Shown one piece after another: positions 12,314-62,661 of a stretch of 64,000 nt of DNA (position 1 is the first letter of the stretch; every line of letters starts with the position of its first letter). The stretch is from assembly GCF_004010195.1 (NCBI RefSeq), contig NC_057734.1, forward strand, positions 25,174,382-25,238,381, in the 5' to 3' direction. Made by a program: the position numbers and the translations under genes. The notes under the pieces were generated by a model. That model ran no database searches. It had not been told where the DNA came from and worked only from the letters and a program-made list of their open reading frames with translations. This stretch comes from Chiloscyllium plagiosum (Eukaryota).

Positions 12314-12470
12314 CCACCCTTCAGGCTCTCTGCCTGTATTCCTGATGAAGGGCTTTCGCCTGAAACGTCGATTTTATTGCTCCTCGGATGCTGCCTGACC
12401 TGCTGTGTTTTTCCAGCATCACTCTAGTCTAGACTCTGGTTTCCAGCATCTGCAGTCATTGTTTTTACCT
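12314..12470 (+). mobile_element. Solo Penelope-like pLTR with intact minimal hammerhead motif
   Basis: attc-CTGATGA(12342-48)-agggctttcgcct-GAAAC-GTC(12367-69)-gatt. Same sequence as the terminus of the PLE at 19757-20727. Confidence 0.75.
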
Positions 12471-13960
12471 AGGAGATAAATCTTTCCATGGAGCCATAAG
12501 CTTAAGTATTCACATTTAGGCCTGTTGGAAACCATTGCCTTATTTTCTTCTACACTTGCATAACAGAATATTCTGCATATTATACTTAAAGTCTCTATGA
12601 GCAACTTTTTTCATACTACCAATGTTCTGCAGAAGGTTTCTTTTAATAAGATTGGGCAGGACTTTCAAATACTTTCCTTCTAATCATCATGTACAATTGA
12701 GATCTCATTCAAAGTTATCAAAAACATCTTTCAAAATATATGGCATGTTTTATACAAAAAACAATACTTGCCAAACGTTTTTCTCCATACTTTTCAAATG
12801 TTTCAAGGGTTAAGCTATTATAATGCCTGAGGACCGAAAATAAGGAATAGTGGGTGAGCAGGGGCAGATGAGCTTGGTGGGTGTGGTGAAATTGCAATGA
12901 CTTAGTTGTTGGCATACTTACTTAGGGACCAATTCCCATGTTGGGAAGTCCTGATCAAGCAATAAGAAACGGAAAGTTTTACTCTGTAAATTCAATTAAC
13001 TTGCCCATTAGTAATCATTTTAGTAGAATTGAAAGTTTCTAACTTTAATATTAATTAGAATAAGTTTTCAGTTCTTGGGTGGTCACCTGTTATAACTTAA
13101 CACTGATGACCCATTTAAGATGGTGTGTGTATATAGAGGATACATTTTATAAGTAAAATTATTACTCTATGCTCCTGTAATCCCCTAGTTGGGCACAACT
13201 CTAATAGCAAACTTGCCTCTAAAAACAATGAGACTGCAGCTCAGCAGGAAGTGACCCATACATTCTGCCTCATTCAAAATGAAAATTCTCAAAGTAATAA
13301 GACTGCAATTGGTTGTGTTTGGATAACACATGTCATGTCAAGCACTCAGGATTAGTAATGTTAGAGTTTTCAAAGTAATACTATTGAATAGTTACATGAA
13401 CCCTTCTTGTTTTCTCTGAACTATTGAATCTAAACCTTTACGATATGAAGAGGAAACACTTTTGAGGTATTTCAGTTAGTGTTTGGCAAAATATTAATCT
13501 TCAAAAAGTACAATTTGAATTGAGAAAAGCAAGAATATTTGTAAGCTGTCAGTCAATGCAAAAAGCAAACAAGTTGATCTTTTGAGGGTGGCTCCTTCAA
13601 TGCTAACAAAATGTTCTACACTGGCTGATAACTTGACACTGATCATCACAAATTAAGTTGATACTTGTTCTGCTTAATTCAATAACAGTACAATAGCATG
13701 TTTCATTTTTAAAGTTCTACCATTCCATTCTTTTAGCTGGTTCTTCATAACAATGCATGGTATGGATTAGGGAGTAGCAATAATCTGGTCATGGCAAGCA
13801 CAGCTATTATGCAATTTTGCATTCTATAGGTGCCTCAATATTAATATTGAAGTTTAGTTTACTACCAAAACTATGCTTGATAGGTTTTTTTTCATTAGTT
13901 AACCAGTTTTTCTTCTCCTCTCTCCCCCCCCTCCCCAACCGTGATTCTACATTTTTCCAG

Positions 13961-14145
13961 TTGAAGAACAGCTGCAGTTCAGCAGTGACGAGAATCTCTG
14001 CAGGATCTGTATGGATGCAGTGATCGATTGTGTTCTCCTCGAATGTGGTCACATGGTCACTTGCACGAAATGTGGAAAGCGCATGAATGAATGCCCTATT
14101 TGTCGACAATATGTTGTACGGGCAGTACATGTCTTTAAGTCTTAA
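13961..14145 (+). CDS. RNF34: RNF34 terminal coding exon (C3HC4 RING)
   Basis: [60 protein letters not shown]. Acceptor tttttccag, phase 1. Adjacency to KDM2B supports RNF34 over the paralog RFFL. Confidence 0.95.
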
Positions 14146-14695
14146 ATTTGGGAGGTGTTTGAATGAAGAGAATATGGCTTTTCCTGTTGTTAGATGAAAC
14201 TTGATGGAGAAACATTTTATGCCCATATCAATGACTGTAATTTGTTGTAGCCATTTTGGATAGTTTGGAGGAATGGAATTTCTTTTAATTTACTAAGTTA
14301 TCATTACTTATTACTGGGAGCCTTAAGGAGATCAGAGTTAAACTATGTTAAGGTGCAAAAAAAAATTACTGAATTATAACATTTATCAGCACTAAGTCTG
14401 AGACTCTATGAAGGATATGCTGTGGGGGGGGGGGGGAAAAAGCAAAGATTCTATTTTAAACTTTTCATATCAATTTTATAAGTCTCCTAAAACATTTGCC
14501 ATTTAGTGGATTCATGTGGGATAGAGTAGTCATTAACTAGCCTGCAGACTTGCTCTCAATATGAATTGAGCATCTAGCAGTGTCCAATGAGAACAGAAAG
14601 GAAACCTCACGAGCAATCTTACATTTACTACTAACTATCTTGGTTTCTCATTTTTGATTTCTGTACTTTTTGTATGTTTTTAAAGTTCATTGCCT

Positions 14696-14701
14696 AATAA
14701 A
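14696..14701 (+). promoter_or_regulatory. Candidate RNF34 polyadenylation signal AATAAA
   Basis: Canonical AATAAA ~550 nt after the stop codon, in T-rich context. Confidence 0.45.
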
Positions 14702-17308: not shown

Positions 17309-17490
17309 TTAACTGAGTTTTTGTAAGAGTTTTTCCTCTGACAAATTGAACTGAACAATAACAGACATTTCTGCTATGAATTGTTCACAACCTTCTTTTG
17401 TTACCTGTTTGCAGTAACGGAGGTCTATTCGGCAGATATTACCACAACGTTTGAAATAGGTTAGGCACTGGTCAGTGACTTTATTGCAAA
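17309..17490 (-). CDS. KDM2B: KDM2B terminal coding exon (LRR)
   Basis: [59 protein letters not shown]; acceptor ttcttcag, phase 1. Confidence 0.95.
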
Positions 17491-18262: not shown

Positions 18263-18358
18263 TGGTCATGGTGTTGTCAGAACAGAGCTTGTCATGGCAT
18301 TGTCAGGACAGAGCTGGTCATGGCATTGTCAGGACAGAACTGGTCATGTCCTTATCAG
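18263..18358. repeat. 26-bp minisatellite, ~3.7 copies
   Basis: Unit tggtcatggcattgtcaggacagagc starting at 18263, 18289, 18315 and 18341. Confidence 0.85.
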
Positions 18359-18412
18359 TACTAGAGATTGCAAAGGAAGAACTTATGGGTTAAATAGTTG
18401 AGTTATTACAGT

Positions 18413-19150: not shown

Positions 19151-19756
19151 AAATGTGCAGGAGTCAAAACATTGTGTAAAGTACCACAAGAGCCAATTAA
19201 GTGACCTGTTTAATTTTGATTTGGAGATGCCGGTGTTGTACTGGGGTGTACAAAGTTGTGTGATTTTAAACTTTGTTTCATTTTGAATGGTGTTGACCTT
19301 TATGGTGTTGGCTGACACTCAACATAAATGTTGCCAATGATTAAGCAGCTTCTGGAAGTGAGCCTTTCAGCTCAAAGGACCCAATCTCTGCCTGCCTCTG
19401 GTTGGCTTATTATGTTGTTTGTGTGGCTGGTCCAGTGAAGGTTTTAATCAGTTATTACATCCAAGATGATGATGGTACAGGGTCGGTTGCGGTTATGCCA
19501 CTGAAGGTTATAACTAACTTGTATATTTAATGGAGTAGATCATGACCTGGCACTTGTGTGCTACAAATGTTTTTGCTATTTATCACCTGTTTATTATCCA
19601 GATCCTAATACTAGCACAGTCTAATTATCAGAAGAGTTATGAACACTGTCTTACTTCTAAATAAAATGATGATAGGAATGTCGTTGATCTAGTAGCTGAA
19701 GATTTTTCTTTGGCAGTGTGGTACATCAAAGCTACCACAAGTTCCAAAATTATACT

Positions 19757-20727
19757 CTGGATCAGTGGTGCTGGAAGAGCACAACAGTTCAGGCAGCATC
19801 CGAGGAGCAGTAAAATCGACGTTTCGGGCAAAAGCCCTTCATCAGGAATAAAGGCAGAGAGCCTGAAGGGTGGAGAGATAAGCTAGAGGAGGGTGGGGGT
19901 GGGGAGAAAGTAGCATNNNNNNNNNNNNNNNNNNNNNNNNNNNNNNNNNNNNNNNNNNNNNNNNNNNNNNNNNNNNNNNNNNNNNNNNNNNNNNNNNNNN
20001 NNNNNNNNNNNNNNNNNNNNNNNNNNNNNNNNNNNNNNNNNNNNNNNNNNNNNNNNNNNNNNTCCCCATTGTAGAGGAGACCGCATCGGGAGCAACGGAT
20101 ACAATAGATGATATTAGTGGATGTGCAGGTAGAACTTTGATGGATGTGGAAGGCTCCTTTAGGGCCTTGGATGGAGGTGAGGGAGGAGGTGTGGGCACAG
20201 GTTTGCAGTTCCTGCGGTGGCAGGGGAAGGTGCCAGAATGGGGTGGGTTGTAGGGGGGGCGTGGACCTGACCAGGTAGTCACGGAGGGAACGGTCTTTGC
20301 GGAAGGCGGAAAGGGGTGGGGAGGGAAATATATCCCTGGTGGTGGAAATGTCGGCGGATGATTTGGTTTATGCGAAGGTTGGTAGGGCCCATACGTGTGC
20401 CCACGGCTACCCCTTTGGTCTGGAGGAAGTGGGAGGATTCGAAGGAGAAATTGTTAAGGGTGAGGACCAGTTCGGCCAAACGAATGAGAGTGTCGGTGGA
20501 AGGGTACTGTTGGGGACATTGGGAGAGGAAAAAACTGAGGTCTTGGAGGCCCTGGTCATGGCTGATGGAGGTGTAGAGGGATTGGATATCCATGGTGAAG
20601 ATGAGGCATTGGGTGCCAGGGAAACGTCGATTTTACTGCTCGTCGGATGCTGCCTGAACTGCTGTGCTCTTCCAGCACCACTAATCCAGAATCTGGTTTC
20701 CAGCATCTGCAGTCATTGTTTTTACCC
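19757..20727 (-). mobile_element. Penelope-like element with inverted pLTRs and 14-bp TSD
   Basis: RT motifs MDIQSLYTSI...LAELVLTLNNFSF...KGVAVGTRMGP and GIY-YIG-region Cys motifs on -. pLTR on - at 19757-19900 and on + at 20621-20727. TSD tccaaaattatact at 19743-19756 and 20728-20741. Confidence 0.85.
19815..19849 (-). ncRNA. Minimal type I hammerhead ribozyme motif (PLE-associated), intact core
   Basis: Minus strand: attc CTGATGA a gggc tttt gccc GAAAC GTC gat. Self-complementary ACGT stem III, typical of dimer-forming PLE hammerheads. Confidence 0.7.
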
Positions 20728-21010
20728 TCCAAAATTATACTGTTAGTTGTCAGAACTTGGAAAAATCTGATCCTTATAATACACACTGCTCAAGTAGCAA
20801 GTTGTAAAATTTAACTAAATTTTTATTTTCAACTTTATAGCATTTAATTAGATTGATTTGAACTAGGAAAACAATATTTTCACTGTAGCATAGGAATTTA
20901 TTTTATGTTCTAAACTGTATACACAATCAAACAAATTACTTGCAAAGCAATTAAAAGTTAAATTTCACCAATTTTAGCTTAAATAATAACTCAAAATGCA
21001 CATTTCTCAC

Positions 21011-21229: not shown

Positions 21230-21878
21230 CTTTCAATTATGACAAGAAACTTATTAATAAAATCATAAGAAATAGAGAAGTAGGCAACTTAGCTCTTCTC
21301 TCATTCCACCATTCAACAAGATAATGACTGATCTGTACCAGGCCTCAGTTACTTATCATAGTTCTCAACTCCCCAATGTTCCAAAGATTTATATACCTCC
21401 TGTTTAAATAGTTAAGTAGAGAATTTCAAACTCTCACCTGCCCTCTGGAAAAAGAAATTCTTTTGCACCTTGGTTTTAAATGAGATTCCCTAGTTCCACC
21501 CTGTCAAGCCTGCTCAGAATCTTGTATGTTTCAAATCAGTCACCCCTCATTTTCCCTCATCACTGATAAATAAAGGCCTAACCTGTTTACCCACTCTGTA
21601 TCAATCTATCCAATTAACCACCATCTAATGAGAGAGTAGCTAAATGGTCTGATTGGACTATTGCGACTTTACTCTTAATTGTTGTAAAACTATTTTTCCA
21701 AATCCAACCCCCAAACACTCGAGGCAGAAATTCAATTTGCCTTAATCACTTGTTGCACTTGCATGCTAACCTTTTGTATTTCATGTACAGGAAGACCCAG
21801 ATCCTTCTGTACTGCACATTTCTGGAGACCCCCACTGTTTAAATGATAGCCTGCCTCTTGGTTCTTCCTAATGAAATG

Positions 21879-23362
21879 TAGTTGTCGTGGGTACGTTTGC
21901 CGAGCTGAAAAGTTGGTTTGCAGCCATTTCGTCCCCTGTCTGGGCAACATCCTCAGTGCTGTGGAGCCTCCTGTATTGTGTCGGTTGGAATTTATTTGCT
22001 TTTGTTCCTTCTGCTTCCGGTTGTTCGTTGCAGTGGTTGGTATATTGGGTCTAGGTCAATGTGTTTATTGAAGAAGTCCATGGCTGAGTGTCACGCTCCT
22101 AGAAATTCTCTGGCTGTCCTCCGTTTGGCTTGTCCTATTATTATTGTGTCATCTCAGCCAGACTTAGGATGCTTGTCTGTCTGCCAGGCATCTGTGGATG
22201 AAGTTGTGGGGATATCTGTTTTTGGCAAAGACTTTATAGAGGTGTGCTTCTTACTCTCTTCGCAAATCGAGTGCTGCAGTGTGTTGTATTCTTTTTGAAC
22301 AGAGTCCTAATGCAGCTAATCATGTGTTTGGGTGGGTGCTGTTATAATTCAGGATCTTGTCAGTGTGTGTGACTTTTCTGTACACTTTTGCTGTGCGTTC
22401 CCCATTGTGTTCTTTCTACTATCAAATGTAGGAATAGAAGTTGGTTGTTAACTTCCTCGTCTCTTCTAAATTTGATCCCTGTGAGCTTGGTGTTGATAAT
22501 CTAGTGTGTGCTCTCAATCACTGTCCTTTAATTATTACAAATGTGTCATCCACGTATCTGATCCAAAGTTTGGGTTGGATTTGTGGAAAGGCTGTTCTAG
22601 TCTTTGTATCACTACTTCTGCTGTAAGCCCGGAGATGGATGAGCCTATGGGCCATTGGTTTGAACATATATCTGCTGCTGAATATGAACTGCATTGTTAA
22701 GCACAGGTCCAGCAGTTTGAGCATGCAGTCCTTGTTGATTGGTTCTTCATTGTGTAGTCTGTTCTGTTTGTCCACAAGGTTGGCTATTGTACATGAACTG
22801 ACATCCACGCTCCGACAACAGTTCACCAGAACAAAAGATTCAATAACCATCAGGTGCAGGACAAACATGGTGCACGAGATTCCATGCAGAGACTGCACAA
22901 AACACTATATAGAACAAACAGGCAGACAACTAGCAATCCGCATTCATAAACATCAACTGCCACTAAACACCTTCGTAGCTATACACACAGACAGCAAGCA
23001 CCACATATTCGACGGGGACAACATAACAATAACAGGCCAAGCCAAACTGAGGTCAGTCAGAGAATTTCTAGAAGCATGGCATTCATCCACAGACTCCATC
23101 AATAAACACATTGACCTCGACCAAATGTACGGACCCTATATGCAACGAACAAATGGAACCGGCAACCGGAAGCAGCAGGAATGAAACCAAATAAATTCCA
23201 ACCGACACAGTACAGCAGTACTTCACATGAGGTGCCACAGCATTCAGGATGTCACCGAGAAAGGGGTTGAAACGTCTGCAAACCAACTTCCCAGCTTGGT
23301 GAACATAACCACAACAAGTGCAACTGGCAACCAAGCTACAAATCTTTACACAAACCTTGAAC
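21879..23362. mobile_element. Second-family Penelope-like element with internal inversion and 13-bp TSD
   Basis: RT motif PKLWIRYVDDTFVII on -. GIY-YIG region TNMVHEIPCRDCTKHYIEQTGRQLAIRIHKH on +. Inverted terminal pLTRs. TSD tcctaatgaa(a/g)tg at 21866-21878 and 23363-23375. Confidence 0.8.
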
Positions 23363-28981: not shown

Positions 28982-29302
28982 GCAGCACAGTGGCTAGCAC
29001 TGCTGCCTCACAGTGCCAGGGACGCAGGTTCGATTCCGGCCTTGGGCAACTGTCTGTGTGGAGTTTGCAGGTTCGACTCCCGCCTCCTGGTGTCTGTGTG
29101 GATTTCCTCCAGGTGCTCTGGATTCCAAAAGATGTGCACCGACCATGCTAATTGCCCATAGTGATAGGCGCATTAGTCAGGGGTAAATACAGGAATGGGG
29201 AATGGGTCTGGGTGGATTATTCTTCAGAGGTTCAGTGTGGACCTGTTGGGCCAAACAGCCTGTTTCCATATTGTAGGAAATCTAATCATCTAATCTAATC
29301 TA
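28982..29302 (+). mobile_element. HE1-like SINE
   Basis: gcacagtggctagcactgctgcctcacag A-box head, ggttcgattcc B-box and (taatc)n tail. Confidence 0.8.
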
Positions 29303-33860: not shown

Positions 33861-33917
33861 TGTACCATAGCTGAATCAGCGGGACAGCGCGGGGTCCTGC
33901 AGCCGCACGGCACGGGA

Positions 33918-35890
33918 TCTCACCGACGACCTCACCTCCCATCACCAAACCATTATCTCCTCGACCATACACAACCTCATCACCTCAGGAGATCTCCCAC
34001 TCAGTTTCCAACCTCATAGTGCGGGAACCTCTCACCGCCTGATTCTACCGCCTTCCCAAGATCCACAAGCCTGACCACCCCGGCCAACCCATTGTCTCAG
34101 CCTGCTCCTGCCCCACCGAACTCATCTCCACCTACCTCGATACTGTGGTCCAGGAACTCCCCACATACGTTCGGGGACACCACGCACACCCTCCACCTCC
34201 TCCAAGACTTCAGTTTCCTTGGACCCCAATGCCTCATCTTCACACTGGACATCCAATCCCTCTACACCTCCATCTGCCATGACAAAGCCTCCAAGTACTC
34301 CGTTTCTTCCTCTCTCAACGTCCCCACCAGTACCCTTCCACTGACACTCTCATTCAGTTGGCTGAACTGGTCCTCACCCTCAATAATTTCTCCTTCCAAT
34401 ACTCCCACTTCCTCCAGATGAAATGGGGAGCCCTGGACACCCACATGGGCCCCAGGTATGCCTGTCTATTTGTCAGCTATGTGGAACAGTCAGTAGTTAC
34501 ACCGGCACCACTCCCCACCTCTTCCTCCACTACATTGATGACTGCATCGGCGCCACCTCGTGCTCACGCGAGGAGGTTGAACAGTTCATCAACTTCACCA
34601 ACACATTCCACCCCGACCTTAAATTCACCTGGACCATCTCAGACACCTCCCTCCCCCTCCTGGACCTCTCCATCTCCAACAATGGTGACCAACTCAACAC
34701 TGACATTTTTTGCAAACCCACCAACTCCCACAGTTATTTGTATTACATCTCCTCCACCCTGCCTCCTGTAAAAATGCTCTCCCGTATTCCCAATTCCTCC
34801 ACCTCTGCCGCACCTGCTCCCAGGAGGACCAGTTTCACCATAGAACACACCAGATGGCCTCCTTTAAAGACCGCAATTGCCCCTCCCACGTGGTTGAAAA
34901 TGCCCTCCAACGTATCTCATCCACTTGCTGCACCTCTGCCCTTGAACCCCATCCCTTCAACCACAACAAGGAGAGAACCCCCATGATCCTCGCCTTCCAC
35001 CCCACCAACCTTCGTAACAACGCATCATCCTCCGCCATTTCTGCCACCTACAAACAGACCCCACCACCCTCCCCATCCCTTTCCGCTTTTCATAAAGACC
35101 ATTCCTTCAGTGACTACCTCATCAGGTCCACACTCTCTCCCCCCACCTCCAACAACCCACCCTCCCCTCCCGACACCTTCCTTTACCACCACAGGAATTG
35201 CAAAACCTGTGCCCACACCTCCCTCTTCACCTCCGTCCAAGGCCCCAAAGGCTTCCACATCCAGCAAAGTTTCACTTGCACTTCCACACGTGTGATTTAT
35301 TGTATCCGTTGCTCCTGAAGTGGTCTCCTCTACATTGAGGAGACAGGACGCCTTCTCGCAGAGCGCTTCAGAGAACATTTCAGAACACCCGCACCAATCA
35401 ACCCCACTGCCCTGTGGCAGAATACTACAACTCCCCCTCCCATTCCACCGAGGACATGCAGGGCCTGGGCCTCCTCCATTGCCACTACCTTACCATCTGA
35501 CACCTGCAGGAAGAATGCCTCATCTTCCACCTCGGGTCCCTCCACCCCATAGCATCAATGTGGATTTCACTAGTTTCCTCATTTCCCCTCCCTCCACCGT
35601 ATCCCAGTTCCAACCTTCCAGCTCAGCACCGCCCTCACGACCTGTCCTACCTGTCCGTTCCACTTTCCCCTCCGACCTATCACCTTTACCCCCACCTCCA
35701 TCCACCTATTGCGCTCTCAATTACCTTCCCGCCAGCCTGACCTCCCCCTCCCATTTATCTCTCCACCCGCAAGGCTCCCTGACTCATTCCTGTCGTTGAT
35801 TCTCCTGCTCCTCGGATGCTGCCTGACTTGCTTGCTTTTCCAGAACCACACTCTCGACTCTAACCACCAGCATCTGTAGTCCTCACCTTC
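33918..35890 (+). mobile_element. Penelope-like element (RT + GIY-YIG + pLTR), frameshifted
   Basis: FYRLPKIHKPDHPGQPIVS, LDIQSLYTSI, YIDDCIG, FHPDLKFTW, FTCTSTRVIYCIRC, YIEETGR. The terminal pLTR at 35750-35890 lacks the hammerhead core. Confidence 0.85.
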
Positions 35891-36199
35891 AACTAATATA
35901 TTAGTTGCCTACTTTCAGTCCAAGTTCAATTAATCCAAAATCTATTAAAGCAGCCAAAGCGCTTTGGAGAAAAATGAAAGTGGTCTACACCAACTATTAC
36001 TGAATTAGCATTGATGGGGTAGACCAGTGAAAGTCATCAGGGTTTTAAATATTGTATAATAGATAATATTTCAATGGGTTTACAATGTGCAACTTTACAG
36101 CTTGAAATAAACTTGCAAGGCAGAGAAATATAACTAAAATTCTGCACAAAGTATTTGTTCCCCTGCATTTCAGATAATAAGGAAATAAATATAAGCAAA

Positions 36200-41303: not shown

Positions 41304-41617
41304 GCGGCACGGTGGCACAGTGGTTAGCACTGCTGCCTCACAGCACCTGAGACCCGGGTTCAATTCCCGCCTCAGGCGACTGACTGTGTGGAGTTTGCAC
41401 ATTCTCCCCGTGTCTGCGTGGGTTTCCTCCGGGTGCTCCGGTTTCCTCCCACAGTCCAAAGATGTGCAGGTCAGGTGAATTGGCCATGCTAAATTGCCCG
41501 TAGTGTTAGGTAAGCGGTAAAGGTAGGGGTATGGGTGGGTTGCGCTTCGGCGGGTCGGTGTGGACTTGAAGAGCCGAAGGGCCTGTTTCCACACTGTAAG
41601 TAATCTAATCTAATCTA
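41304..41617 (+). mobile_element. Young HE1-like SINE
   Basis: Clean A-box (tggcacagtggttagc), B-box (ggttcaattcc), CpGs retained, (taatc)3 tail. Confidence 0.88.
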
Positions 41618-45508: not shown

Positions 45509-45709
45509 CAGGTGGCTCATCTATAACAGGATGGTTGCGTTCTTGTGTAACGCCTCATTATAGAAAAATCGCACTTTAGAAACAACGCTTAAAGTGTTGA
45601 CAATGTAATGGAGTTACAACCAACACACATTTTAAATGCTTGTGCTGTAGAAAGTGTCCCCAATCCGTCAATCGTGTTAATGCAACGCACATTATAGCAG
45701 AACAACCTG
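45509..45709. mobile_element. Tigger-like MITE, copy 1
   Basis: TA|CAGGTGGCTCATCTATAAC ... ATTATAGCAGAACAACCTG|TA; homologous to 49198-49382. Confidence 0.75.
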
Positions 45710-47945: not shown

Positions 47946-48652
47946 CTAGTAACAAGTGCAGGAAGTTCACGTCATTAATAAAAGTCAATTGTGATAATTG
48001 CTAATTCTTCAGCAGCACAGATGAACAAAATAATATTTCTTACTAAAAATACAATTAACAATTGATAAGGAGTTTTGTACATTGATATTATATGAAGATC
48101 ATGTTAATCGGATTGCTTTTTTCCAGAACTTTTCAAGGTTTTGGAATGGGAAGAAACAAAAAAAAAAGATGGAAAACAATTAGCAAAATCTTTATAAACA
48201 AGAGCACTGTAAATAAAATATTTCTGATTATAGCACATATTTCAAATCATGAACTACAGTCATCAGCCATATTGTTTTGCACTATTGGCACATATGGAAT
48301 GTGTCCCTTATTTCAAACAAGGCAGGGTAAACAGTATAAAGGTGTAGATTTCCTCTAACTTTAAATCACGGCAAATTTTCAGCAGTAACAACATGTGCTC
48401 AATCCAGCTCTTTATAGTCAAAAATATTGTGTTGGAAGTCAGGTTTAAGCTACAGCACTGCACTCATTCAGATTGGTAGAGTGCACTAATTTCACAGTCG
48501 CAATATTTCTGAAATGTTTACTGTTCGAGGCATAGAAGACAAGTGTTTCCATCTCACATGGTGCACATAAATCTTGCTGGAGAGCCTCTTACTTCACAGC
48601 TTTTTAATAATCAACTTTGAATTAATTACTTCAGTAGGTGTGGGGGAAGGAG

Positions 48653-48775
48653 AGAAAGTGAGGACTGCAGATGCTGGAGAGTCAGAGTCGAAAGGTGTAG
48701 CGCTGGCAAAGTGCAGCAGGTCAGGTAGCATCTGAGGAGCAGGAGAGTTGATGCTGGGCATAAGCCCTTCATCGG
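48653..48775 (-). mobile_element. Solo PLE pLTR, degenerate hammerhead
   Basis: Minus gatgaagggcttatgcccagcatc...ctgcagtcctcactttct. Probable TSD ggggga(a/c)ggag at 48642-52 and 48776-86. Confidence 0.7.
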
Positions 48776-49197
48776 GGGGGACGGAGTCAGTATCATAAAG
48801 TCCAGATCACTCTTATCGATTCCAGAAAATTACTTATACAGCCAAATGTTGCTGTCACACAGAAAGTTACAGGATTTTGACTGAGTAACAATCAAGTTCA
48901 CTGGGAAATGTGAAACATTTATAGCTGAAATGTACTTTAAAGGTGTGCTCAGAAATACAATGGTGACCAGAACTGAGACGTCAAGCAAATTTTAATTAAT
49001 TGCCTCTATTTTCATGTTAAGTGGCTTAGTGGAGACTGGTTAATCTGCTACCACTCAGCTGCACTACTGAATTGTGGACATAAACTGATAACTCCAAGTT
49101 TTACTGAAAGGTGAAAAATATTTTGTCACTTTTACAAAACAATAAAGCTATAACTTTAAATAATTTCATAATATGAATGTTTAAGTAATTACAAATA

Positions 49198-49382
49198 CAG
49201 GTAGTTCTTCTATAATGCAATTCTTGTTTGTGTGCAACCCCGTATTATAGAAAAACAGCGCTTTAGAAACTGCGCTTAAAGCGCTGGCGATATAATCGAA
49301 TTACAGCCAACTCATACTTTTAAAAGTTTGTGCTTTAGAAAGTGTCCTAAATTTGTCAATTGTGTTATAGCAGAAGCACCTG
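49198..49382. mobile_element. Tigger-like MITE, copy 2
   Basis: TA|CAGGTAGTTCTTCTATAAT ... GTTATAGCAGAAGCACCTG|TA. Confidence 0.75.
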
Positions 49383-49971: not shown

Positions 49972-52941
49972 CTATGGAGAAAACAGACACCATAAAACTG
50001 CCATCTATGATACTTCAACATGCCATCATAACCCACAGCAGTTATTCCTAGTCCATATTAGCATTATCTTTGTAGAACTGTATTTAACTATTCCAGTTAT
50101 TTGTCCGAATACACGACTGTGGTTTGAATCACTTTTGCATACTGCCTTAAATTTTGAATCTGTGGCCATTCCAAAGTCATTCTGAGAAAAAAATCTCCCT
50201 CACCTAATTTCATTTCTTCCAGTGTATTGCTTTTTTTTTTCAATTTACAAAACACTATATGTCTCAGTATTTAATGTATTTGCTCTTGAATAATAAACAT
50301 AGATATTCCAACAAAACCTCATTTACACCACTCAAAGTTCTCCTTCTTCTTAGTGCACTCAGTTCCAAATAGGATTAAGTTGAGTGGTCCATAAAATGCC
50401 AATCCAGTGTCGCAGCTTATAGAGCTATCAATGCTATCCCACTATTCTATCAAGCCTGTATTTGCCAACTTCCATTACTTCCTGCTTGCCAACACATTGT
50501 AAATAAGAGATTTGAATTCAAACATGTCCACAACTCTATGCCATCTTACACCTACAACTTCATTCAGATCTTTGTTATCATATACCTTCTACATTTCTAG
50601 CTCTGCATTAACCATTACTTTCATTTGTTTATCAATTGCAGTCTTCAGTCCTCCACTTCATCAATTATCTGTCTACAAAAAGCAATTCAAAACCTGTTTG
50701 ACTAACACAGCTCACTTCTATTAGTTCTACCCTTACTGCATTTACTTGTCATTTCACTTTTTCTGCAATCAAGATATTTTATCAATAAAGATATTTTATA
50801 AACGTGTAATTCTAAAATAAAAAGAGCAGGAGGTTGCTCTCTGAAACAACAGTAAAGCAAGAGCAATACAAAATCGCCTGTACTCCATAATATTCCTTTA
50901 GCACCAGGTAATATGGAAATCCATGAGCGCTTGGTGATGCAATATCTTACCTTAGCTATCACTTTGGTTTCAATACAAGCAACATTAATTTTCCTAAGAC
51001 TATGTTAACTCAATGCTCTGACACTGGATTACATAGAATGTATAGCACAGAAACAGGACTGTGCAGAATATTTAGAAAAAGGCCATGTATTTCAGTCAAT
51101 CTTCATTGGGGTTTATTTTCCATTTGAGTCTCCCTCAGTTCTTTCTTCATCTATCATCCTAACCCTCTATTCCCTTCCTCTCATGTTTATTTAATTGCAT
51201 CTTAAATGCAGCTACATGACTTGCTTCAATCGCTCTCTATTACAACAAGCAATAAAGTTTTGGCAGGATTATTCTGCAAGTTTCTCAATGTACAGCATAC
51301 CCAAGACCGGTTAAAGCAAATACTTTTTAGTTAGACAATTGAAACTGCTTCAAACATCAAATAACAGAACTAACCCCAACTTTGTACTTTTGTTTAGTTA
51401 TTGAATTAAATGGTGCCAGCAATGTTTAAGGTAATTGTGAATCTGATTTAATATTTTCTTCAAGGGAACATGACAGTATAGTAGGTCAGGAAGAAACATC
51501 AATTCTACTTATCCTACTTAACCACAAATTTCTATTTAGCAAACACTGTAGATTAACCAAGTTAAACAATTAGAAGTTAACAGGATGGACAGATTTTCTG
51601 GCTGTTGTTTCCATGCAGTGTAAATACATGATAGCATAAAAAATACAAATTAGAATAAGCACATAAAAATATAGGCTTTAGTTCAAGGGTGGAATCAAAG
51701 AACAGCTACCTTTGCAGTTGCCAAGACTGCACATGGCCAGCCTCATGCAATTTCCTGAGGCTCATTTAATTGCAGATTCGTACAAGTTCTCAGCCTGCAT
51801 TGAGCCTACTTACTAGAGCTCAGAGGGTCAAGACATTATTATTGGGGAGTAGTTGCTTTTGTGTACATTTACTTCCATTCAATTTAGTTCAAAATGCATA
51901 GTCGGAGACCATCGAGGCATCGAAGAAAGATCAAATCACACATTATAGTTTCAACAAAGAATCATACAGCACACAGATAGTCATTTGCTCCACGGTGCTT
52001 GAGCTGACTCGTTGTAAGAGCTATATGCTTAGTCATATTCTCCTTTTTTCTCCCCAATACCCAGCAAATAGTTCTCACTAATCTGGATTACACAATCATT
52101 ACAATTCAGCAAATCTGTCAATGGATCTGCTACAACGAATGCCCAAAACAGTCCAAAGATGTATTTCAAACATTTGATCAGTTTTTTTTAAAAGAATACA
52201 TTCAAGGGATGTGTGCTTCACTGGTTGACAAGCATTTATTGTCCATCCCTAATTGCCCTTAACAAGGCGCTGGTGAGCTGCCTTCTTGAACTCCTGCAGG
52301 CCATTGGTAAAAGGCAACCTTTACTGCCGATAGAGGGGGAATTCTACAATCATGAATCAGCATTACAAATAAATACGTTTAGTACAGATTGATTCAGTTT
52401 CTGAGGAGTGCTGCACATTGCGTAACCATCAGCGACATCACTACTTTGACCTTATGAGGAAGTTAAGGTCATTGATGAAGATGGTTAGGCCTAGGACACT
52501 GGCTTAAGGAACTCCTGCCAAGATGAGGCTGAACTGACTGATCTGCAGTAACCACAGCCATCTTCCTTTGCGCAAGATACGATTCCAGCTAGCAGAAAAT
52601 TTCCCCCAATTTCCACCGACTCTCAAACTTTCAAAATATACAATCTTATAAACCTTGGAGATGTAAGACTGCTTTTGAAAAGTGTCTGAAATTTATGATA
52701 AATTAAAGGAGCTCATGTGACGTGCTCTGAATTTTGCCAATAATCTGATTTCAGTGCCTTGACTGTCGAGAGATGGTTTTATAGTTTTAGTGGGAAGAAG
52801 GTGCAAGATGAATATAGTTTTAAATTCTTAGGCAAGTGTTGAAAATGCTGTTGTAAAGAGTTGTGTTTTGAATTTTAAAGATAACAGAGCATTACGGTCT
52901 CAATGTTTTACCCTTGATACAAGGTCCATGTAATTCACATT

Positions 52942-53064
52942 CCTCATGAAGGATTTATGCCTGAAACATCAACGCTCCTGCTCCTTGGATGCTTCCTGAT
53001 CTGCTCTGCTTTTCCAGTACCTCACCTTTGACTCTGATCTCCAGCATCTGCAGTCCTCACTTTC
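52942..53064 (+). mobile_element. Solo PLE pLTR with 17-bp TSD, mutated hammerhead
   Basis: TSD tccatg(t/c)aattcacatt at 52925-41 and 53065-81; the core reads CTCATGA...GAAACATC. Confidence 0.75.
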
Positions 53065-56000
53065 TCCATGCAATTCACATTACCTTACATTACATTGTCT
53101 TTAAGAAGGAAACAGCCTAAGATATCCCTGTAAACAGGGATAGATTTATCTATTTGTGGTGTGGTGTTGAGTGAGTTTCACAGCATCTGGTCTGCTATGG
53201 TCCAGGGTGAATTTCCTCATGTGAGCTTTCACTTCGATAATTTTGCAACCAAACTGCGAGTGAACCCATGCCCAGGGAGGCAGACAAGCTTGCCACTATT
53301 GTGACCAATTCCTTCAGTGATGACCAACTGTGGTGGTATCACCCCCAATTGACTGTAAACCCCGCTTAACCTCACTGAGGACTCTTCAGTTTTGACTTTC
53401 ACAAATGATAAAATGATTGAGCAATGCAGTGGGTTTACCATGTTAACAGCCGGCAAATTTGAAATTTGACAGCTCAGATATTGATGTTACATGGTGTGTT
53501 AGAGAAGCGTATTCAACCCCCTGTATGAATGAACCACTTACTCTTCAGTGCACTGCACCATCACAAGCTGCCAACTACCACTGCTTTCAAGACAAACTGG
53601 TGGTAGTAGGTCAGCTCCTGAGTACAGAGCTTGACAGTGTGAAGTGGTGGCTGGGTTCGTCCAAAAGCAAACATGGTGACAATGGTAGTTTATCGATGTG
53701 GATTTATGTGGATAAAAGGTCCATGATGATGGTGACCATGGAACATGCAGAAAGAAGTAGGATAGCAGAATGCTGGCCAAGATGGGCACTTGATGAGCTG
53801 TTGCCACCAGGTATCCACTCTGTTTTACCTGTCAGGAACTTGCACTATCTAGTTTTTGCAGTGCAGGAAGTGAGAACTGAAAATGGTATCTAAACAGGGC
53901 AAGTTGCATCACCAAATGCTACAAGATGTTGCATTTGACCAAAAAGTCAGAAATTTTACAAGTTATGAACCAGTCTATGGAGGGTTAGTTAGGATTCGAT
54001 GGGCTGAACGGCCTGCTTCCATACTGTAGGGATTCTATGATTCTAGTTATTATTTGACTCCTGTAAGCAACTGAAAATCTCTGGAGAAGAAAGTGCAAGG
54101 AACATTAAGTACTGGTAAGCCAAAAAGATCATGTCAGCAATCCCTGGGGTCAGGAACCATTGAACAGTTTCCCAGGTTTTCCCTCCACCCACAATATCAA
54201 TGTGTCTAAGTGTGCGCAGGGGAAGTGTATAATGAGGTCAGTTTTAAGTGGTAGTGTTTTATGTGTCAACAGTCCATAGTTATTCATCTGTAGCTATAAT
54301 CTATTTATCCATAATAAATAATCATTCTTGTAATGAAGCCCTGGTCTCTGCTTTCGGTTAACCTGGATATAAATGCAAGTATATTGAGGAAATTTGCATA
54401 CTTTGATAACATCTTGCATTTTTATGAAGAAGCCAAGAGTAGCGGGGCTCGCTTTCTAGTGAACAACCTCAAGAGACATGACATCTGGAATAGCATTATT
54501 ATGGAATGTAAGTATGAAGAGAAAAATTAAAGTAGAGAAAGGGGAAGTAAATTATATTCAACAAAATATGGGGATATATGTTAAAGATGTAACATGAACA
54601 CTAACTTAACTATAGCATTTCCTATAGGACAGCAGGGGAATGGTGAAATTAACTTGGACTTTCTCATGGTGATTTTTGAGTGACTTATGTTGGAACCGCA
54701 CTTGTGTGAACAATGCATGAAAAAGGTTTACTGCAGCTAAATGCTCCCTAAGAAATGAATAACAGGTTGATCAACAGGTGGGAAAAGTGCAACTTGATTG
54801 AAGTACCTGAAGCCTAAAACTATAAAGCAATATCATGGATTTAACATCAAAAGGCTTTTTTTAAAATCTAGGTGACCTATTATTGAGCTCATAGTGCCAT
54901 TGAGACTGGATGAAATTAAGATCAAGATCAAAGCTAGGCCGCTTTACTTGAAAAATGCCTCGTCCAATGTGACTTTATCAACAAGAAGTTAACTGCTGAC
55001 TATTGTGCTTATTAATCCCGAGCTTTAATGCCTTCCAAGCAGCTCACTCACTGATGAGTGAAAAACTAAGTAGGAAATGGCTGCATAGCAGCAGAGAAAC
55101 ATCCAATCCACCTATTCATTGCTGTGTTTGTCACCAGCAGTCTTTTCTTAACTCTTGACACTAATAGCAATTTGCATACAACACTGACTAAATTAATTCC
55201 AATAATTTTCATAATTTAAAAATGCATTTTTATTTCTGCTGGCAAAAACTGTAAATATGAATCATTCGCTAGTTTTAAATCCAAAACATATAAAACTGAG
55301 CAAAGCTGTGACCTCTACCACCTAGAAGGACAAACACAGAAATCACAAATCACCTCACGCTCTCTTCCAAGTCATATTATCATCCTGAATTGGAACTTTG
55401 CTACCGTTCCTTCATTGTCATTGGGTCAAAATCCTGCAACTCTGGCCGTTACAGCATTCCGGATGTACCTTTACCATTCCACCATGGAATCAGTGACTCA
55501 TTAAGAAATTACAGTGTTTTTGTTTCTTTGGATATGGAGTAAGGTAATATGACGACCCTGCTCTCCAAAGTATACTACGTGAAGAAATATCTGAGGGTAT
55601 GAACATTTTGGGTATGGGACAGGAAAAAGAACAGGCAAGGAGGGCAAGTTACTGCAGGTCCTCCCAAAGAATGCCCCTTGCATTTATGGCACTTGCAGGT
55701 ATGCATTTCTCTCCTCAATCTTGCAGTGCAAATTCACTCTCAACCACATTGCCATCCCACTTCTACACAACCTGGATTACCTTCCAATAAAGTTCCAGAA
55801 CATCAGATATTTTCCAGCACTCAGTCAAGTGACTATAAATTAACATATTAATTTTGACAGAGTCAGCCAGCTACTGAACAGAGGAGCATTATGGCCAAAT
55901 CTATTCAATATTTACACCTGCAGTTTTTTAGTAAAATCAGGAATGTTGCCTGCTTTTCTTGCCTGATGTTAAAAGCAGTTATGTAGATTCTTTCATCATT

Positions 56001-57154: not shown

Positions 57155-57496
<342 letters not shown>

Positions 57497-58759: not shown

Positions 58760-59785
58760 AGAAATAACTGATCCCTGACACTCCATTTCAGTTTCACCAA
58801 TGATCTGACCTTATTACCACCTTGCTCCAAACGTGAACAAAAGAGCTAAACTCTAGAGGGGAGATAAGGATGTGTGCCCTTGCCCTCAAGGTAATATTTG
58901 ACCCAGTATGGCTCCAAGGAAGTCTATGGAAAGGAGGGGTAAACCCTCTACTGGTTAGAATGGCCTTCTTGACCACTCTATCCACCTGTGCAGCAACCTC
59001 CAGGGTACAATGGACCTACACTCCCATATCTCTCTGCCCATCAACTTTTCCCAAGGCTCTTCTGTTCATTGTATANNNNNNNNNNNNNNNNNNNNNNNNN
59101 NNNNNNNNNNNNNNNNNNNNNNNNNNNNNNNNNNNNNNNNNNNNNNNNNNNNNNNNNNNNNNNNNNNNNNNNNNNNNNNNNNNNNNNNNNNNNNNNNNNN
59201 NNNNNNNNNNNNNNNNNNNNNNNNNNNNNNNNNNNNNNNNNNNNNNNNNNNNNNNNNNNNNNNNNNNNNNNNNNNNNNNNNNNNNNNNNNNNNNNNNNNN
59301 NNNNNNNNNNNNNNNNNNNNNNNNNNNNNNNNNNNNNNNNNNNNNNNNNNNNNNNNNNNNNNNNNNNNNNNNNNNNNNNNNNNNNNNNNNNNNNNNNNNN
59401 NNNNNNNNNNNNNNNNNNNNNNNNNNNNNNNNNNNNNNNNNNNNNNNNNNNNNNNNNNNNNNNNNNNNNNNNNNNNNNNNNNNNNNNNNNNNNNNNNNNN
59501 NNNNNNNNNNNNNNNNNNNNNNNNNNNNNNNNNNNNNNNNNNNNNNNNNNNNNNNNNNNNNNNNNNNNNNNNNNNTAACATCACACTTTTACACACTCTC
59601 TATGCCTATCCAAGTCCTTCTACAGCCTCCCTGCTTCCTCAACACCACTTGTCTATCCACCTATCTTTGTGTCATCTGCAGACTTGGTATCAGTGCCCTC
59701 AGTTCCTTCATCCAGATCATTAATATATCACATGAATAACTTTGGTTCCATCACTGACCCCTGCACAGTTCCACTAGTCACCACT
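58760..59785 (-). mobile_element. CR1 LINE fragment spanning an N-gap
   Basis: DRVVKKAILT motif and the gttccactagtcac / tctgcagacttgg RT remnants. Confidence 0.55.
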
Positions 59786-59959
59786 TCTGCGAACGCCACG
59801 ACAAATGTCATTGCTGCCCCTGCGGTTGCCACCAAACGCATCACTTCTACCCCCATGCCACCGTTCACATCACTTCTCTGGTGATGTCACTCATGATGTC
59901 ACCGGTGAGCACATGACCATCCCCCTAGTCCAGAGACAGTGTCCACTCCAACTCCAGGT

Positions 59960-61540
59960 TTACATCAGGCCCTAGCACTGCCAGGTATTCACTATCCCCC
60001 CAGACCTCTCGCTCAATGAGTATGAATGATCAGTTCTCAGTAAACATCTTAGCTTCATCTCGCTACGCGCCCCGGTCAAGGAATTTCGTACGCACTGCGA
60101 TATTGAACTTTTCTTCTGCTGCCTCCGTGTCTACTTTTTCGATCACAACTCCCATCCACCTTCCAAAGACCCCCTTCTCCCACCTCCAACATATTCCAAC
60201 CTCCTGGACATCCCCTCTTTTATCTCCAACTACAGACATTGATCGTCTCAACCTGAAAACTCCTCTTACCCACTCCAATCTCTCACCCTCGCAACACGCA
60301 GCCCTCCACTTCCTCTAATCCAACCCCAACCTCAAACCAGCTGACAAGGTGGGGGGTGGGGGGGGATGCATGATAGTATGGCACACCGAACTCAACCACA
60401 CCAAAGCCAGGCGCCAACTCAGTGACATCTCCTCCTACCACCCCTTGGGAGGGGAAATTGCAATCCTTGAAATAAGAGGTAATCCGAGATATCCTGGAGT
60501 GGAATGGCTCTTTTTGGGAGCAGATATGGTGGAGGCAGAGGAATTGGGAATAAGGGATTGTGTTTTTACAGGAGGTGGGGAGGGAGGAAGTGTAGTTAAG
60601 GTAGCTCTGGGAGTCGCTGGGTTTGAAATAGATGTCCGTGTTGAGTCGGTCGCTGGAGAACGAGACAGAGAGGTCTAGGACAGGGAAGGAGGTTTTGGAG
60701 ATGGTCCACGTGAACTTGTGGTCAGGCTATAAGGTATTGGTGAAGTTGATGAACTGTTCAACCTCTTTGTGGGAGCATAAGGTGGCGCTGGTACAGTCAT
60801 CAATGTAGTGGAGGAAAATTTGGGGGATGGTGCAGATGTAACTGCGCAAGATGGATTTTTCCACATATCCTGCATAGAGGCTGGCATAGCTGGGGCTCAT
60901 GTAAATGTCCTGAAGAAGGGCTTATGCCCGAAACGTCAATTCTCCTGTTCCCTGGATGCTGCCTGACCTGCTGCGCTTTTCCAGCAACACATTTTCAGCT
61001 CTGATCTCCAACATCTGCAGACCTCACTTTCTCCTCATGTAAATGTCCATGGCTAACCCTTCTTGTTTGTGGGAAGTGGCAGGATTCGAAGGAGAACATG
61101 TTGAAGGTGAGGACCAGTTCTGCCAATTGAATGAGTTTGTCGGTGGAGGGAACTGGTTGGATCGGTGAGAGAGGAAGGAACAGAGAGCTCTAAACCTTCG
61201 TCATAGGGGATGGAGATGTATAGGGACTGGATTCCATGGTGAAGATGAGATGTTGGGGATCGGAAAATCAAAATCACGGAGGAGGTGGAGGGCATGGGTG
61301 GTGCCCTGAATAGATGTGGGGAATTCATGGACCAAGGGTGACAGGACAGAGTCCGAGGTAGGAGGAGATTAATTTGGTGGGGCAGGACCAGGTGGAGACA
61401 ATTGGTCAACCGGGGCAATCAGGTTTGTGGATTTTGGCTAAGAGGCAGAACTGATGGGTGGAGCAGGGTTGGGGAGTTATGAGGTTGGAGGCATTGGATT
61501 GAAGATTCCCTCAGGTGATGGGGTCATTGATGGTTTGGTG
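59960..61540. mobile_element. Older Penelope-like element with inversion (+ to ~60445, - from ~60446)
   Basis: + segment is the PLE N-terminal/RT start (SNLSPSQHAAL...KPADKVG). - segment has RT motifs homologous to 33918-35890. Confidence 0.7.
60911..61033 (+). mobile_element. Solo PLE pLTR with 15-bp TSD and hammerhead core, nested in an older PLE
   Basis: TSD ctcatgtaaatgtcc at 60896-910 and 61034-48; CTGAAGA a gggc ttat gccc GAAAC GTC. Confidence 0.85.
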
Positions 61541-62276
61541 CCATCTTGAAGAAGACTACTCTGCCTTCTGCTAATCAACCTACAATCTGAACACATCTCA
61601 TTTCTAATCTGTCAACTGGTTAGCTTTTCTACCAGTTAATTTAAGCCTGATCCTCTCGTACTTCAAATATCTCTCTATTTTGGTTTACTATCCTTATTGT
61701 TGATTTTAATATTCTTTTCTACTTAAATTTCTAATAAATCTAACAATTCAACAGCCAATTTGTTTGCACTGCACGTTAGCCTGCAACATGGCTGTGGGAA
61801 AGAAAGCAACTTGCACAACACAATAGTAATCAATATTACCTTTGAAAATAAGCATTCTTTGCATTTGAGCACAAATCTATTGTGAATACAGACCTCATAA
61901 TAAAGCGACTTCAACGACTAATTTCCTTAAGTTCTCAATTAACACAAAAGACTTTTGTTAAACATCCTGGTTGAATGGCAGTCCCAATATGCTAATTTAC
62001 TCTGCGCACTGAGAACGAATAAATGCTACAAGACTGTTTTGTCATTTGTGCCAGCAGTTTTTAAACAATTTCAGCCAAGATATATTAATATATATCAGTA
62101 AAATGTCACATATTGGTGGAAACGTAAGTGTAGGTGTGTCAAATCCATGTGGCACAGTTTATGAGCAGTGGGGCCAACATTGGACATTTAAATTGGACAG
62201 TTGTCGAGCACTAAACGACTGCAAAACAAAGAATTGATGGTTTTTCAAGCTTAAGGTAGACTGGATACTCCTAATG

Positions 62277-62433
62277 TAGGTAAAAACAATGACTGCAGAT
62301 GCTGGAAACCAGATTCTGGATCAGTGGTGCTGGAAGAGCACAGCAGTTCAGGCAGCATCCAAGAAGCAGCAAGCTCTCTGCCTTTATTCCTGATGAAGGG
62401 CTTTTGCCCGAAACGTCGATTTTGCTGCTTCTC
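62277..62433. mobile_element. Mini PLE made of two inverted pLTR halves, intact hammerhead on +
   Basis: TSD ggatactcctaatg at 62263-76 and 62434-47; CTGATGA at 62390-96, GAAACGTC at 62410-17. Confidence 0.85.
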
Positions 62434-62451
62434 GGATACTCCTAATGGCCT

Positions 62452-62661
62452 GAGTCAAAAAATGTGGCGCTTGAAAAGCACAGCAGGTCAGGCAGCAACA
62501 AGCAAGGGAGTCGACCTTTTGGACATAAGCCCTTCACAAGGAAGGGCATATGTTCAAAACATCAACTCTCCTGCTCCTCGGATGTTGCCTGATCTGCTGT
62601 GCCTTTCCAGCCCCACGCTTTCCGACTCACTTTCCAGCATCTGCAGACCTCACTTTCTCTC
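62452..62661. mobile_element. Older mini PLE made of two inverted pLTR halves
   Basis: TSD actcctaatggcct at 62438-51 and 62662-75; arms at ~62452-62536 (-) and ~62541-62660 (+). Confidence 0.8.

What the first reader, a model, noticed from the sequence alone, without database searches (positions are those of the whole stretch)
12314..62661. Dispersed hammerhead-ribozyme-bearing Penelope termini behaving as ~125-200 bp mobile units
Seen: the motif CTGANGA-a-gggc-N4-gccc-GAAAC-GTC is intact at 12342(+), 19818-45(-), 60910(+) and 62390(+). It is mutated or deleted at 35785, 48760, 52943 and 62510-62560. Several copies have no ORF at all yet carry their own 11-17 bp TSDs. Established: PLE pLTRs encode minimal type I hammerheads whose palindromic stem III (here ACGT) favours dimer-dependent cleavage. 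Inference: this is a very abundant ribozyme-containing repeat system in this shark. The copies are either extreme 5' truncations of PLEs or a non-autonomous, retrozyme-like family.
Basis: partly seen in the sequence, partly recalled or inferred. Interest (0 to 1): 0.75.

Follow-up and report, generated by a model that had tools for sequence, protein, structure and literature searches.

The report
Fixed-start Penelope hammerhead stubs in shark
These short repeats are pasted copies of the end module of a known jumping gene (a Penelope-like element) in a carpet-shark-type genome; many begin at one spot just in front of its small hammerhead ribozyme motif, not at the predicted cut site, which likely marks where the element's RNA starts.

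Summary
Four intact minimal hammerhead cores sit at the stated places (0 in 100 shuffles). They belong to eight insertions of two Neptune-type Penelope subfamilies: six lack an ORF, five have clear 14-17 bp TSDs, three are head-to-head fold-backs with the 32-36 nt tail on one arm only. All of that layout is published. Truncation is not smooth: in two independent DNA datasets 2,184 of 7,297 and 2,023 of 5,893 partly laid contigs leave the element within four letters of the core's first base, into unique flanks, with no listed pile at the GUC cut. Nor are they retrozymes: no tandem units, template uncut across GUC, and ORF-less and ORF-bearing copies share a subfamily (95%). Position -4 is the A of a YYANWYY initiator match. 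Best reading (0.6): RT starts inside the 5' pseudo-LTR and runs off the RNA's 5' end. The start site, cap and cleavage are untested. The scan noted the same pattern before, in this genome and in others.

The parts
12314..12470 (+). Subfamily A ORF-less copy: 28 nt of 3' UTR, hammerhead core 12342-12369, tail to the terminal end; no TSD found
19743..20741 (.). Subfamily A fold-back insertion with a 14-bp TSD (19743-19756 / 20728-20741)
19757..20620 (-). Long arm: RT piece (20626-20381), internal deletion, Zn-linker and GIY-YIG piece (20386-20065), assembly gap 19917-20062, 3' UTR, intact core 19845-19818; ends at the internal start site, without tail
20621..20727 (+). Short arm: from GAAACGTC (microhomology with the RT arm) to the terminal end, with tail; overlaps the other arm by 68 nt, 65 of 68 identical
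33883..35893 (+). Subfamily B long decayed copy: RT, CX4CxxC linker, GIY-YIG, 3' UTR, core mostly deleted at 35790-35794, tail; no TSD found
48652..48776 (-). Subfamily B ORF-less copy, 5' end at about -1; borderline 13-bp TSD (48640-48652 / 48774-48786)
52925..53081 (+). Subfamily B ORF-less copy 52942-53064, 5' end at -1 to -5 (microhomology), 17-bp TSD with 1 mismatch
60896..61048 (+). Subfamily B ORF-less copy 60911-61033, 5' end at -2 to +1, perfect 15-bp TSD; inserted antisense into the RT of an older Penelope copy
59979..61537 (.). Older Penelope RT remnant that hosts the 60.9 kb copy: + arm 59979-60438 and - arm 61537-60439
62263..62447 (.). Subfamily A ORF-less fold-back: tail arm 62277-62371(-) and hammerhead arm 62370-62437(+, begins at -19, core 62390-62417); 14-bp TSD; both arms share two private changes
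62438..62675 (.). Subfamily B ORF-less fold-back: arm 62452-62543(-) from -3 to the internal start site, arm 62541-62661(+) from +6 to the terminal end; 14-bp TSD that overlaps its neighbour's TSD

Best explanation
These are target-primed insertion products of two Neptune-type Penelope-like retroelement subfamilies, and the short ORF-less ones are likely run-off copies of the first 90-130 letters of the element's uncut RNA. Shown by sequence: every copy is the element's pseudo-LTR module (hammerhead core plus downstream tail); there are two fixed 3' ends 32-36 nt apart; TSDs are 14-17 bp; many 5' ends lie 2-4 nt (up to about 10 nt) before CUGANGA; the GUC site is copied intact. Inferred: transcription starts at the A of an initiator-like motif four letters before the core. 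The RT-GIY-YIG protein nicks the target, starts copying at one of the two tail sites of this 5' module, and falls off the RNA's 5' end. The cDNA end then anneals to the other target overhang by 2-5 nt microhomology. When both nicked strands prime, one at each start site, the two cDNAs join head to head and give the fold-backs with the tail on one arm only. Copying from the 3' module gives the rarer long, randomly truncated copies. In a single RNA the ribozyme is predicted to stay inactive, so its cleavage does not make these ends.
For: (1) Genome-wide 5' junctions. Run X1: 331, 438 and 1,415 contigs leave the element at -2, -3, -4 (2,184 of 7,297 partly laid). Run X5, another study: 179, 264, 398, 1,182 at +1, -2, -3, -4 (2,023 of 5,893). 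Loose parts are long (median 133-255 nt) with consensus agreement 0.31-0.34, the level of unrelated flanks; a simulation gives 0.31 for pure flanks, and a full template consensus once 15% or more run on for 30 nt. (2) Depth step: RNA reads of X21 fall from 1,328 (+7 to +13) to 170 (-9 to -15), then slowly to 123 (-30 to -36); summed X1 contig depth falls from 14.2 to 3.9 million over the same bins. (3) No listed pile at the cut site, and all window copies that reach it span it. (4) Window: 4 of 8 events have their 5'-most end within -5 to +1 (P 0.0002-0.06 under five smooth models). (5) 5 of the 9 listed opposite-strand joints use +1 to -4. (6) -4 is the A of TTATTCC (subfamily A) and TCATTCC (subfamily B), both YYANWYY (consensus recalled; 1.3% of window positions match). 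(7) PMC11167929: PLE RT initiates internally at two sites that define the tail, extends both strands, uses uncut RNA, and the product shortens when the template's 5' end is shortened. PMC2377424: Penelope has an internal TATA-less promoter. (8) Monomer folds lock the core in a non-catalytic hairpin, with stem I probability 0.04 or less in 8 of 8 folds.
Against: No RNA 5' end was seen: one search listed no place where many molecules begin, and the RNA reads lay on both strands alike (1,008 against 798), as read-through would. The majority first loose letter at -4 is the templated subfamily B base, not a cap-derived G. Part of the -4 pile is inflated because subfamily B differs from the subfamily A reference beyond -4; the piles at -2 and -3 are free of this. 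Only 18 of 561 loose-end rows were shown. Contigs are not copies, and young long copies collapse in assembly. No full-length element with a 5' module running into the ORF lies in the window. In Drosophila Penelope the start site is upstream of an intron (PMC2377424) whose end meets helix I (PMC4209133), so a start directly at the hammerhead is not the known arrangement. A depth curve on a subfamily B reference was not obtained.
Confidence: 0.6

Rival explanations
1. Preferred stop: RT copies the 3' module of a long RNA and stalls or is released at a structure just upstream of the hammerhead, so these are non-random 5' truncations.
For: A small hairpin can be drawn just upstream: AGGC-TCTCT-GCCT ending at -7 in subfamily A (print), and AGGCT-CCC-AGCCT ending near -5 in subfamily B (inferred by combining the loose-end consensus with the 34 kb copy). 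Ends at -19 and -28 also occur in the window.
Against: RT passes the stronger predicted hairpin (-11.4 kcal/mol) that it meets first, at the cut site, without a listed pile there. The two subfamilies have different upstream hairpins but share the position.
Confidence: 0.15
2. Non-autonomous SINE-like family: ORF-less master copies that start at -4 are transcribed from their own internal promoter and are mobilised in trans by the PLE protein.
For: Fixed ends, TSDs and very high abundance; each stub keeps the putative RT start sites; pLTRs suffice in cis (PMC3846280); non-autonomous PLE derivatives exist (PMC8557442 passage on Chlamys; bioRxiv 10.64898/2026.07.22.740005).
Against: In subfamily A the ORF-less 62.3 kb tail arm is 95% identical to the ORF-bearing 20 kb copy; subfamily B short copies are no closer to each other (73-86%) than to the long copy (74-82%). 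Two subfamilies about 70-77% alike show the same ends. It can coexist with the best explanation.
Confidence: 0.15
3. Ordinary smooth 5' truncation, with the pile an artefact of alignment or of detection by the motif.
For: PLE insertions are highly 5'-truncated (PMC8557442); part of the -4 pile is clipping of subfamily B; within the window alone P reaches 0.06 under a short exponential.
Against: The piles at -2 and -3 lie inside sequence shared by both subfamilies and have flank-level agreement; long subfamily B copies do align through to -36 (186 contigs clipped there); window copies were found by the tail, not by the motif.
Confidence: 0.05
4. Retrozyme: hammerhead-cut, circularised small RNAs are reverse transcribed and inserted.
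For: The core is conserved: among the listed variants, change in the core and stem II-III is at N7, loop II and CpG sites (40 of 74 rows shown); three single-contig head-to-tail joints are listed; the circle model is proposed in PMC4209133.
Against: Neither end lies at GUC; no tandem arrays of the unit among the 5 arrays in the window; the ends match the PLE tail sites, which a circle would not fix.
Confidence: 0.04

Closest known systems
Minimal hammerheads in pLTRs of metazoan PLEs (Cervera and De la Pena 2014, PMC4209133; parts 1-2 of 4 read, 2 supplement files searched)
   Same: Type I core with no stem III loop, palindromic 15.2-16.2 positions, unpaired base before stem II, mostly solo genomic copies, some opposite-strand pairs.
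   Different: Stem I here is only 2 bp plus a U-U mismatch and an A-U pair; that paper ascribes solo copies to truncation and reports no fixed 5' end in the parts read; 'shark' does not occur in its text or in the searched supplements.
EN+ PLE insertions with inverted pLTR, tail and TSD; Neptune clade (Craig 2021, PMC8557442, passages; Arkhipova 2013, PMC3846280, parts 1-3 of 5)
   Same: Inverted 5' copy, 30-40 bp tail on one arm only, TSD, microhomology junctions, Zn-finger-like linker before GIY-YIG.
   Different: Here many insertions are only the pLTR module, with their own TSD; the solo pLTRs noted in Adineta lacked TSDs and were ascribed to recombination or deletion.
Anolis Poseidon element PAc (Frangieh 2024, PMC11167929; parts 1-3 of 4 read)
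   Same: Two internal RT start sites that bound the tail, extension of both strands, uncut RNA as template, no reads ending at the cut site.
   Different: Poseidon, not Neptune; its ORF starts inside the hammerhead, whereas the ATG frame here closes after 17 codons (read from the sequence); genomic 5' ends are not analysed in the text read.
Animal non-LTR retrozymes (Li, Clavereau, Pollet 2026, bioRxiv 10.64898/2026.07.22.740005; parts 1-3 of 5)
   Same: PLE-pLTR-derived, hammerhead-bearing, ORF-less, present in the one chondrichthyan sampled.
   Different: Defined as tandem repeats with at least two consecutive hammerhead units; these copies are dispersed monomers or head-to-head fold-backs.

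Membership tests
EN+ Penelope-like element | RT followed by a C-terminal GIY-YIG endonuclease | tested here: met
   tblastn of P0001/P0007/P0008 on 33883-35705 and 20626-20065; Pfam RVT_1 and GIY-YIG on the homologues; window frames are broken
EN+ Penelope-like element | Inverted pLTR with a 30-40 bp tail on one end | tested here: met
   20 kb and 62.5 kb fold-backs; tail 36 and 32 nt; internal-site loose ends 559 and 355 contigs
Neptune clade | CX2-5CxxC linker upstream of GIY-YIG | tested here: met
   CHRRNCKTC in P0008, CNRRKCYTC in P0007; decayed forms in the window; definition from PMC8557442
Neptune clade | RT phylogeny with reference clades (also separates it from Nematis) | not tested
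   no reference PLE sequences fetched
Minimal type I hammerhead | CUGANGA, stem II, GAAA, palindromic stem III, UH | tested here: met
   4 copies, 0 expected; stem II probability 0.67-1.0
Minimal type I hammerhead | Stem I with covariation | tested here: inconclusive
   only 2 bp and invariant within the shark copies; 3 of 4 unrelated metagenome loci (two of them near identical) show U-A, G-C where the shark has C-G, U-A, at positions outside the query pattern
Minimal type I hammerhead | Self-cleavage after GUC as a dimer | not testable with these tools
   lowest-energy dimers are not the catalytic fold; needs an in vitro assay
Non-LTR retrozyme | Tandem repeats of two or more hammerhead units | tested here: not met
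   none among 5 tandem arrays; only single-contig head-to-tail joints
Non-LTR retrozyme | Circular RNA with ends at the cut site | not testable with these tools
   no suitable library; no DNA ends piled at the cut site among the listed rows
Non-autonomous SINE-like PLE derivative | A lineage of short copies separate from ORF-bearing copies | tested here: inconclusive
   8 tail arms only; no separation seen

The most novel reading that the evidence does not exclude
Neptune elements in sharks start their RNA four letters before the hammerhead, and their dominant product is a 90-130 nt strong-stop cDNA made from the RNA's 5' module, on one or both target strands. Because each stub carries the start site and the RT start sites, stubs can be transcribed and copied again, so a SINE-scale family arises at every transposition without its own master. 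The same step would explain how PLEs rebuild their upstream pseudo-LTR and their inverted repeats.
Probability: 0.3. Interest if true: 0.65.

Novelty: new variant of a known kind. Interest (0 to 1): 0.42.

Why it matters
How Penelope-like elements build their pseudo-LTRs, and what their hammerhead does, are open questions (PMC11167929 calls the later steps unvalidated). Thousands of junctions that start at a fixed base before the ribozyme and never pile at its cut give a genomic map of the template RNA's likely 5' end and show that uncut RNA is the template in vivo. This makes the model testable with CAGE and the existing in vitro assay. The ribozyme motif, the fold-backs and the abundance are themselves already described for PLEs.

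Tried and rejected
No whole genome was held, so no genome-wide consensus, tree or endpoint histogram was built. Rfam did not detect the motif. No RNA holder was listed for the 10-kb stretch; X22 laid 0 reads, which is no test. A strict 33-letter pattern found 0 loci in metagenome contigs; a looser one found 4 loci from unrelated families, useless for shark endpoints. Pfam on 5 short window fragments gave 1 weak RVT_1 match. Loose CTGA.GA..GAAA matches elsewhere in the window (11 of 15) lack stem II and GUC and were dropped as chance. No TSD was found for the 12.3 kb and 34 kb copies, also not up to 1 kb upstream. A splice-acceptor origin of the 5' end (pyrimidine tract plus CAG|G at -19, where the 62.4 kb arm begins) was considered; depth shows no marked step there (170, 145, 133 reads). 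A cap-derived G could not be seen. Literature searches: Penelope+hammerhead (45 papers, 30 listed), Penelope+pLTR+inverted+truncated (6), solo pLTR (1), Penelope+shark+Neptune+retrotransposon (0), promoter terms (1), Chiloscyllium terms (1), Penelope-like+strong-stop (1, a Copia paper by its title), non-autonomous+SINE+pseudo-LTR (4). None of the texts read reports a fixed 5' end at the hammerhead's edge, but subscription papers and Repbase/Dfam entries are not searchable here. Lunse et al. on dimer cleavage was not held and was seen only as a citation in PMC6765202. Figures S1-S2 of PMC11167929 (images), file 1 of the PMC4209133 supplement and the bioRxiv supplements could not be seen and may bear on novelty.
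Full report
Numbering: +1 is the first C of CUGANGA, -4 is the A of the ATTC in front of it, and the predicted cut follows +28.

Observation. The strict motif occurs four times at the coordinates given and never in 100 shuffles. A blastn of the window against its own copies and an alignment give eleven arms in eight insertions. They fall into two subfamilies by their tails: A (12.3, 20, 62.3 kb; 89-95% alike) and B (34, 48.7, 53, 60.9, 62.5 kb; 73-86% alike), 70-77% between them. Six of the eight carry no ORF. A TSD search with a null of 60 random window pairs found clear 14-17 bp duplications for five, a borderline one at 48.7 kb and none at 12.3 and 34 kb. The 60.9 kb copy sits antisense inside the RT of an older element and duplicated 15 bp of it exactly, which is direct evidence that a 123-bp ORF-less unit inserted by itself. 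At 62.3-62.7 kb two independent fold-backs landed with overlapping TSDs.

Parent element. The long copies encode broken RT and GIY-YIG frames upstream of the hammerhead in the same sense. The nearest proteins to the 34 kb RT fragment (54 hits) are named from Chiloscyllium punctatum (87% identical), Rhincodon and Stegostoma, so the host is most likely a carpet shark; the species was not determined. These homologues carry RVT_1 and GIY-YIG and the CX4CxxC linker that marks Neptune and Nematis (PMC8557442). The frameshifted end of the Stegostoma protein P0012 reads LMKGLRPKRQ, which is what a hammerhead core downstream of the endonuclease would give (inference).

3' ends. Copies end either at a terminal site (about +124 to +128) or at an internal site 32-36 nt earlier. 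In the 20 kb and 62.5 kb fold-backs one arm uses each site, and the arms overlap by 68 and about 88 nt. One RNA copied once cannot give this; two primings can. The internal site recurs genome-wide (559 and 355 contigs). This is the published PLE tail (PMC8557442, PMC3846280), explained as two RT start sites with both target strands extended (PMC11167929). The 62.3 kb fold-back differs: its second arm starts at a microhomology with the target, and both arms share two private changes, so they came from one source.

5' ends. In the window, 48.7, 53, 60.9 kb and one arm of 62.5 kb stop within -5 to +1, each with 2-5 nt of microhomology; the others stop at -19, -28 or far up in the ORF. On eight events alone this is suggestive (P 0.0002-0.06). 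I therefore laid four public runs of the same species label on the subfamily A copy 19735-19916; three gave data. X1, which may be the window's own sample, laid 53,337 contigs, and X5, from another study, 50,649. Of the contigs that fit only in part, 2,184 of 7,297 (X1) leave at -2, -3, -4 and 2,023 of 5,893 (X5) at +1, -2, -3, -4, into long sequence with 0.31-0.34 agreement. My simulation with a random stand-in template puts pure flanks at 0.31 and shows the whole template emerging in the consensus once 15% run on for 30 nt; the observed consensus follows subfamily B for only about 6-14 letters. The table showed 18 of 561 rows, best supported first; the cut site is not among them, so I take it to have at most 186 (X1) and 161 (X5). 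RNA reads of X21 drop about eightfold between +7..+13 and -9..-15 and then fall slowly. Caveats: the -4 count includes clipped subfamily B copies whose true ends lie a few letters further up; contigs are not copies; young long copies collapse in assembly; the RNA reads come from both strands and 97% run on into flanks, so they report host read-through, not element transcripts. A matching depth curve on a subfamily B reference was not obtained.

Ribozyme. The core fits the minimal hammerhead of PMC4209133. In single-strand folds of four copies at two lengths, stem II forms, stem I does not (0.04 or less), and where position +5 is U the core pairs into a non-catalytic hairpin; the lowest-energy dimers are not the catalytic fold either. 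Variation among laid copies is concentrated at N7, loop II and CpG sites in the rows shown, which suggests that master elements were selected to keep the core. Stem I covaries between the shark copies and unrelated loci, on very few sequences. Activity is untested. Since no end piles at GUC and the site is copied intact, cleavage does not shape these insertions, in line with the in vitro result for the anole element.

Mechanism. The simplest cause of a fixed 5' end shared by two subfamilies is the end of the template. Position -4 is the A of a YYANWYY match in both (consensus recalled; it matches 1.3% of window positions), and Drosophila Penelope has an internal TATA-less promoter (PMC2377424, passages). 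I put 0.6 on run-off from the 5' module, 0.15 on a structural stop, 0.15 on self-copying short masters, 0.05 on smooth truncation and 0.04 on retrozyme circles. That these are Penelope pLTR modules inserted by the element's own enzyme is near certain. Against the favoured reading: no RNA start was seen, no cap-derived G was visible in the majority consensus, and no full-length element was available.

Relation to what is known. It works like a canonical endonuclease-positive PLE insertion and meets the tested PLE and Neptune features. It fails the tandem criterion of non-LTR retrozymes (definition in bioRxiv 10.64898/2026.07.22.740005). The fixed start was not found in eight literature searches or in the parts of seven papers read, within the limits listed under Tried and rejected. 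After I had stated this reading, the scan's own notes showed the same pattern on other windows of this genome and in other genomes (95 findings match the words). They are unchecked AI notes and are not counted as support. Two of their further claims, cap-marked junctions and U6 fusions at the cut site, I could not test. Verdict: real, abundant, mostly known, with one useful mechanistic clue; interest 0.42.

Noticed in passing
window 62263-62675: Two fold-backs of different subfamilies inserted at nearly the same target, with overlapping 14-bp TSDs offset by 4 bp; suggests a re-used nicking site.
   Followed up: partly
window 59979-61537: Older Penelope RT remnant with two converging arms (P0001 residues 72-234 on +, 251-570 on -), an internal inversion with no hammerhead end nearby; an assembly gap lies at 59076-59575.
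   Followed up: partly
window 20381-20386: About 550 bp of the ORF are missing between RT and the Zn linker in the young 20 kb copy, joined over a short G run: a deletion or a template jump.
   Followed up: partly
window 33873-33925: CpG-rich 53 nt (7 CpG, window average 1.2 per 100) at the 5' edge of the 34 kb copy; partly aligns to the ORF, origin unclear.
   Followed up: no
laid on window 19764-19849: Single-contig head-to-tail joints: -4 end to the internal start site, and tail end to two letters before the cut site (seen in both DNA runs); possible rare tandem units.
   Followed up: no
L001-L004: Four metagenome loci carry minimal hammerheads of another family, with a shared downstream ATWAA..GGGAGC motif and an A at -4 in 4 of 4; probably animal host DNA.
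   Followed up: partly
window 2097-2391, 28985-29287, 41306-41610, 53982-54041: Other dispersed repeats, tRNA-SINE-like and LINE-tail-like by appearance; not classified.
   Followed up: no
window 21877-22175 and 22995-23322: A degraded inverted repeat pair about 1 kb apart (77-82% complementary arms), possibly an old DNA transposon or fold-back.
   Followed up: no
window 18263-18348; 45539-45684 and 49226-49372: A 26-bp minisatellite (3.3 copies) and a two-copy 150-bp repeat 3.7 kb apart.
   Followed up: no
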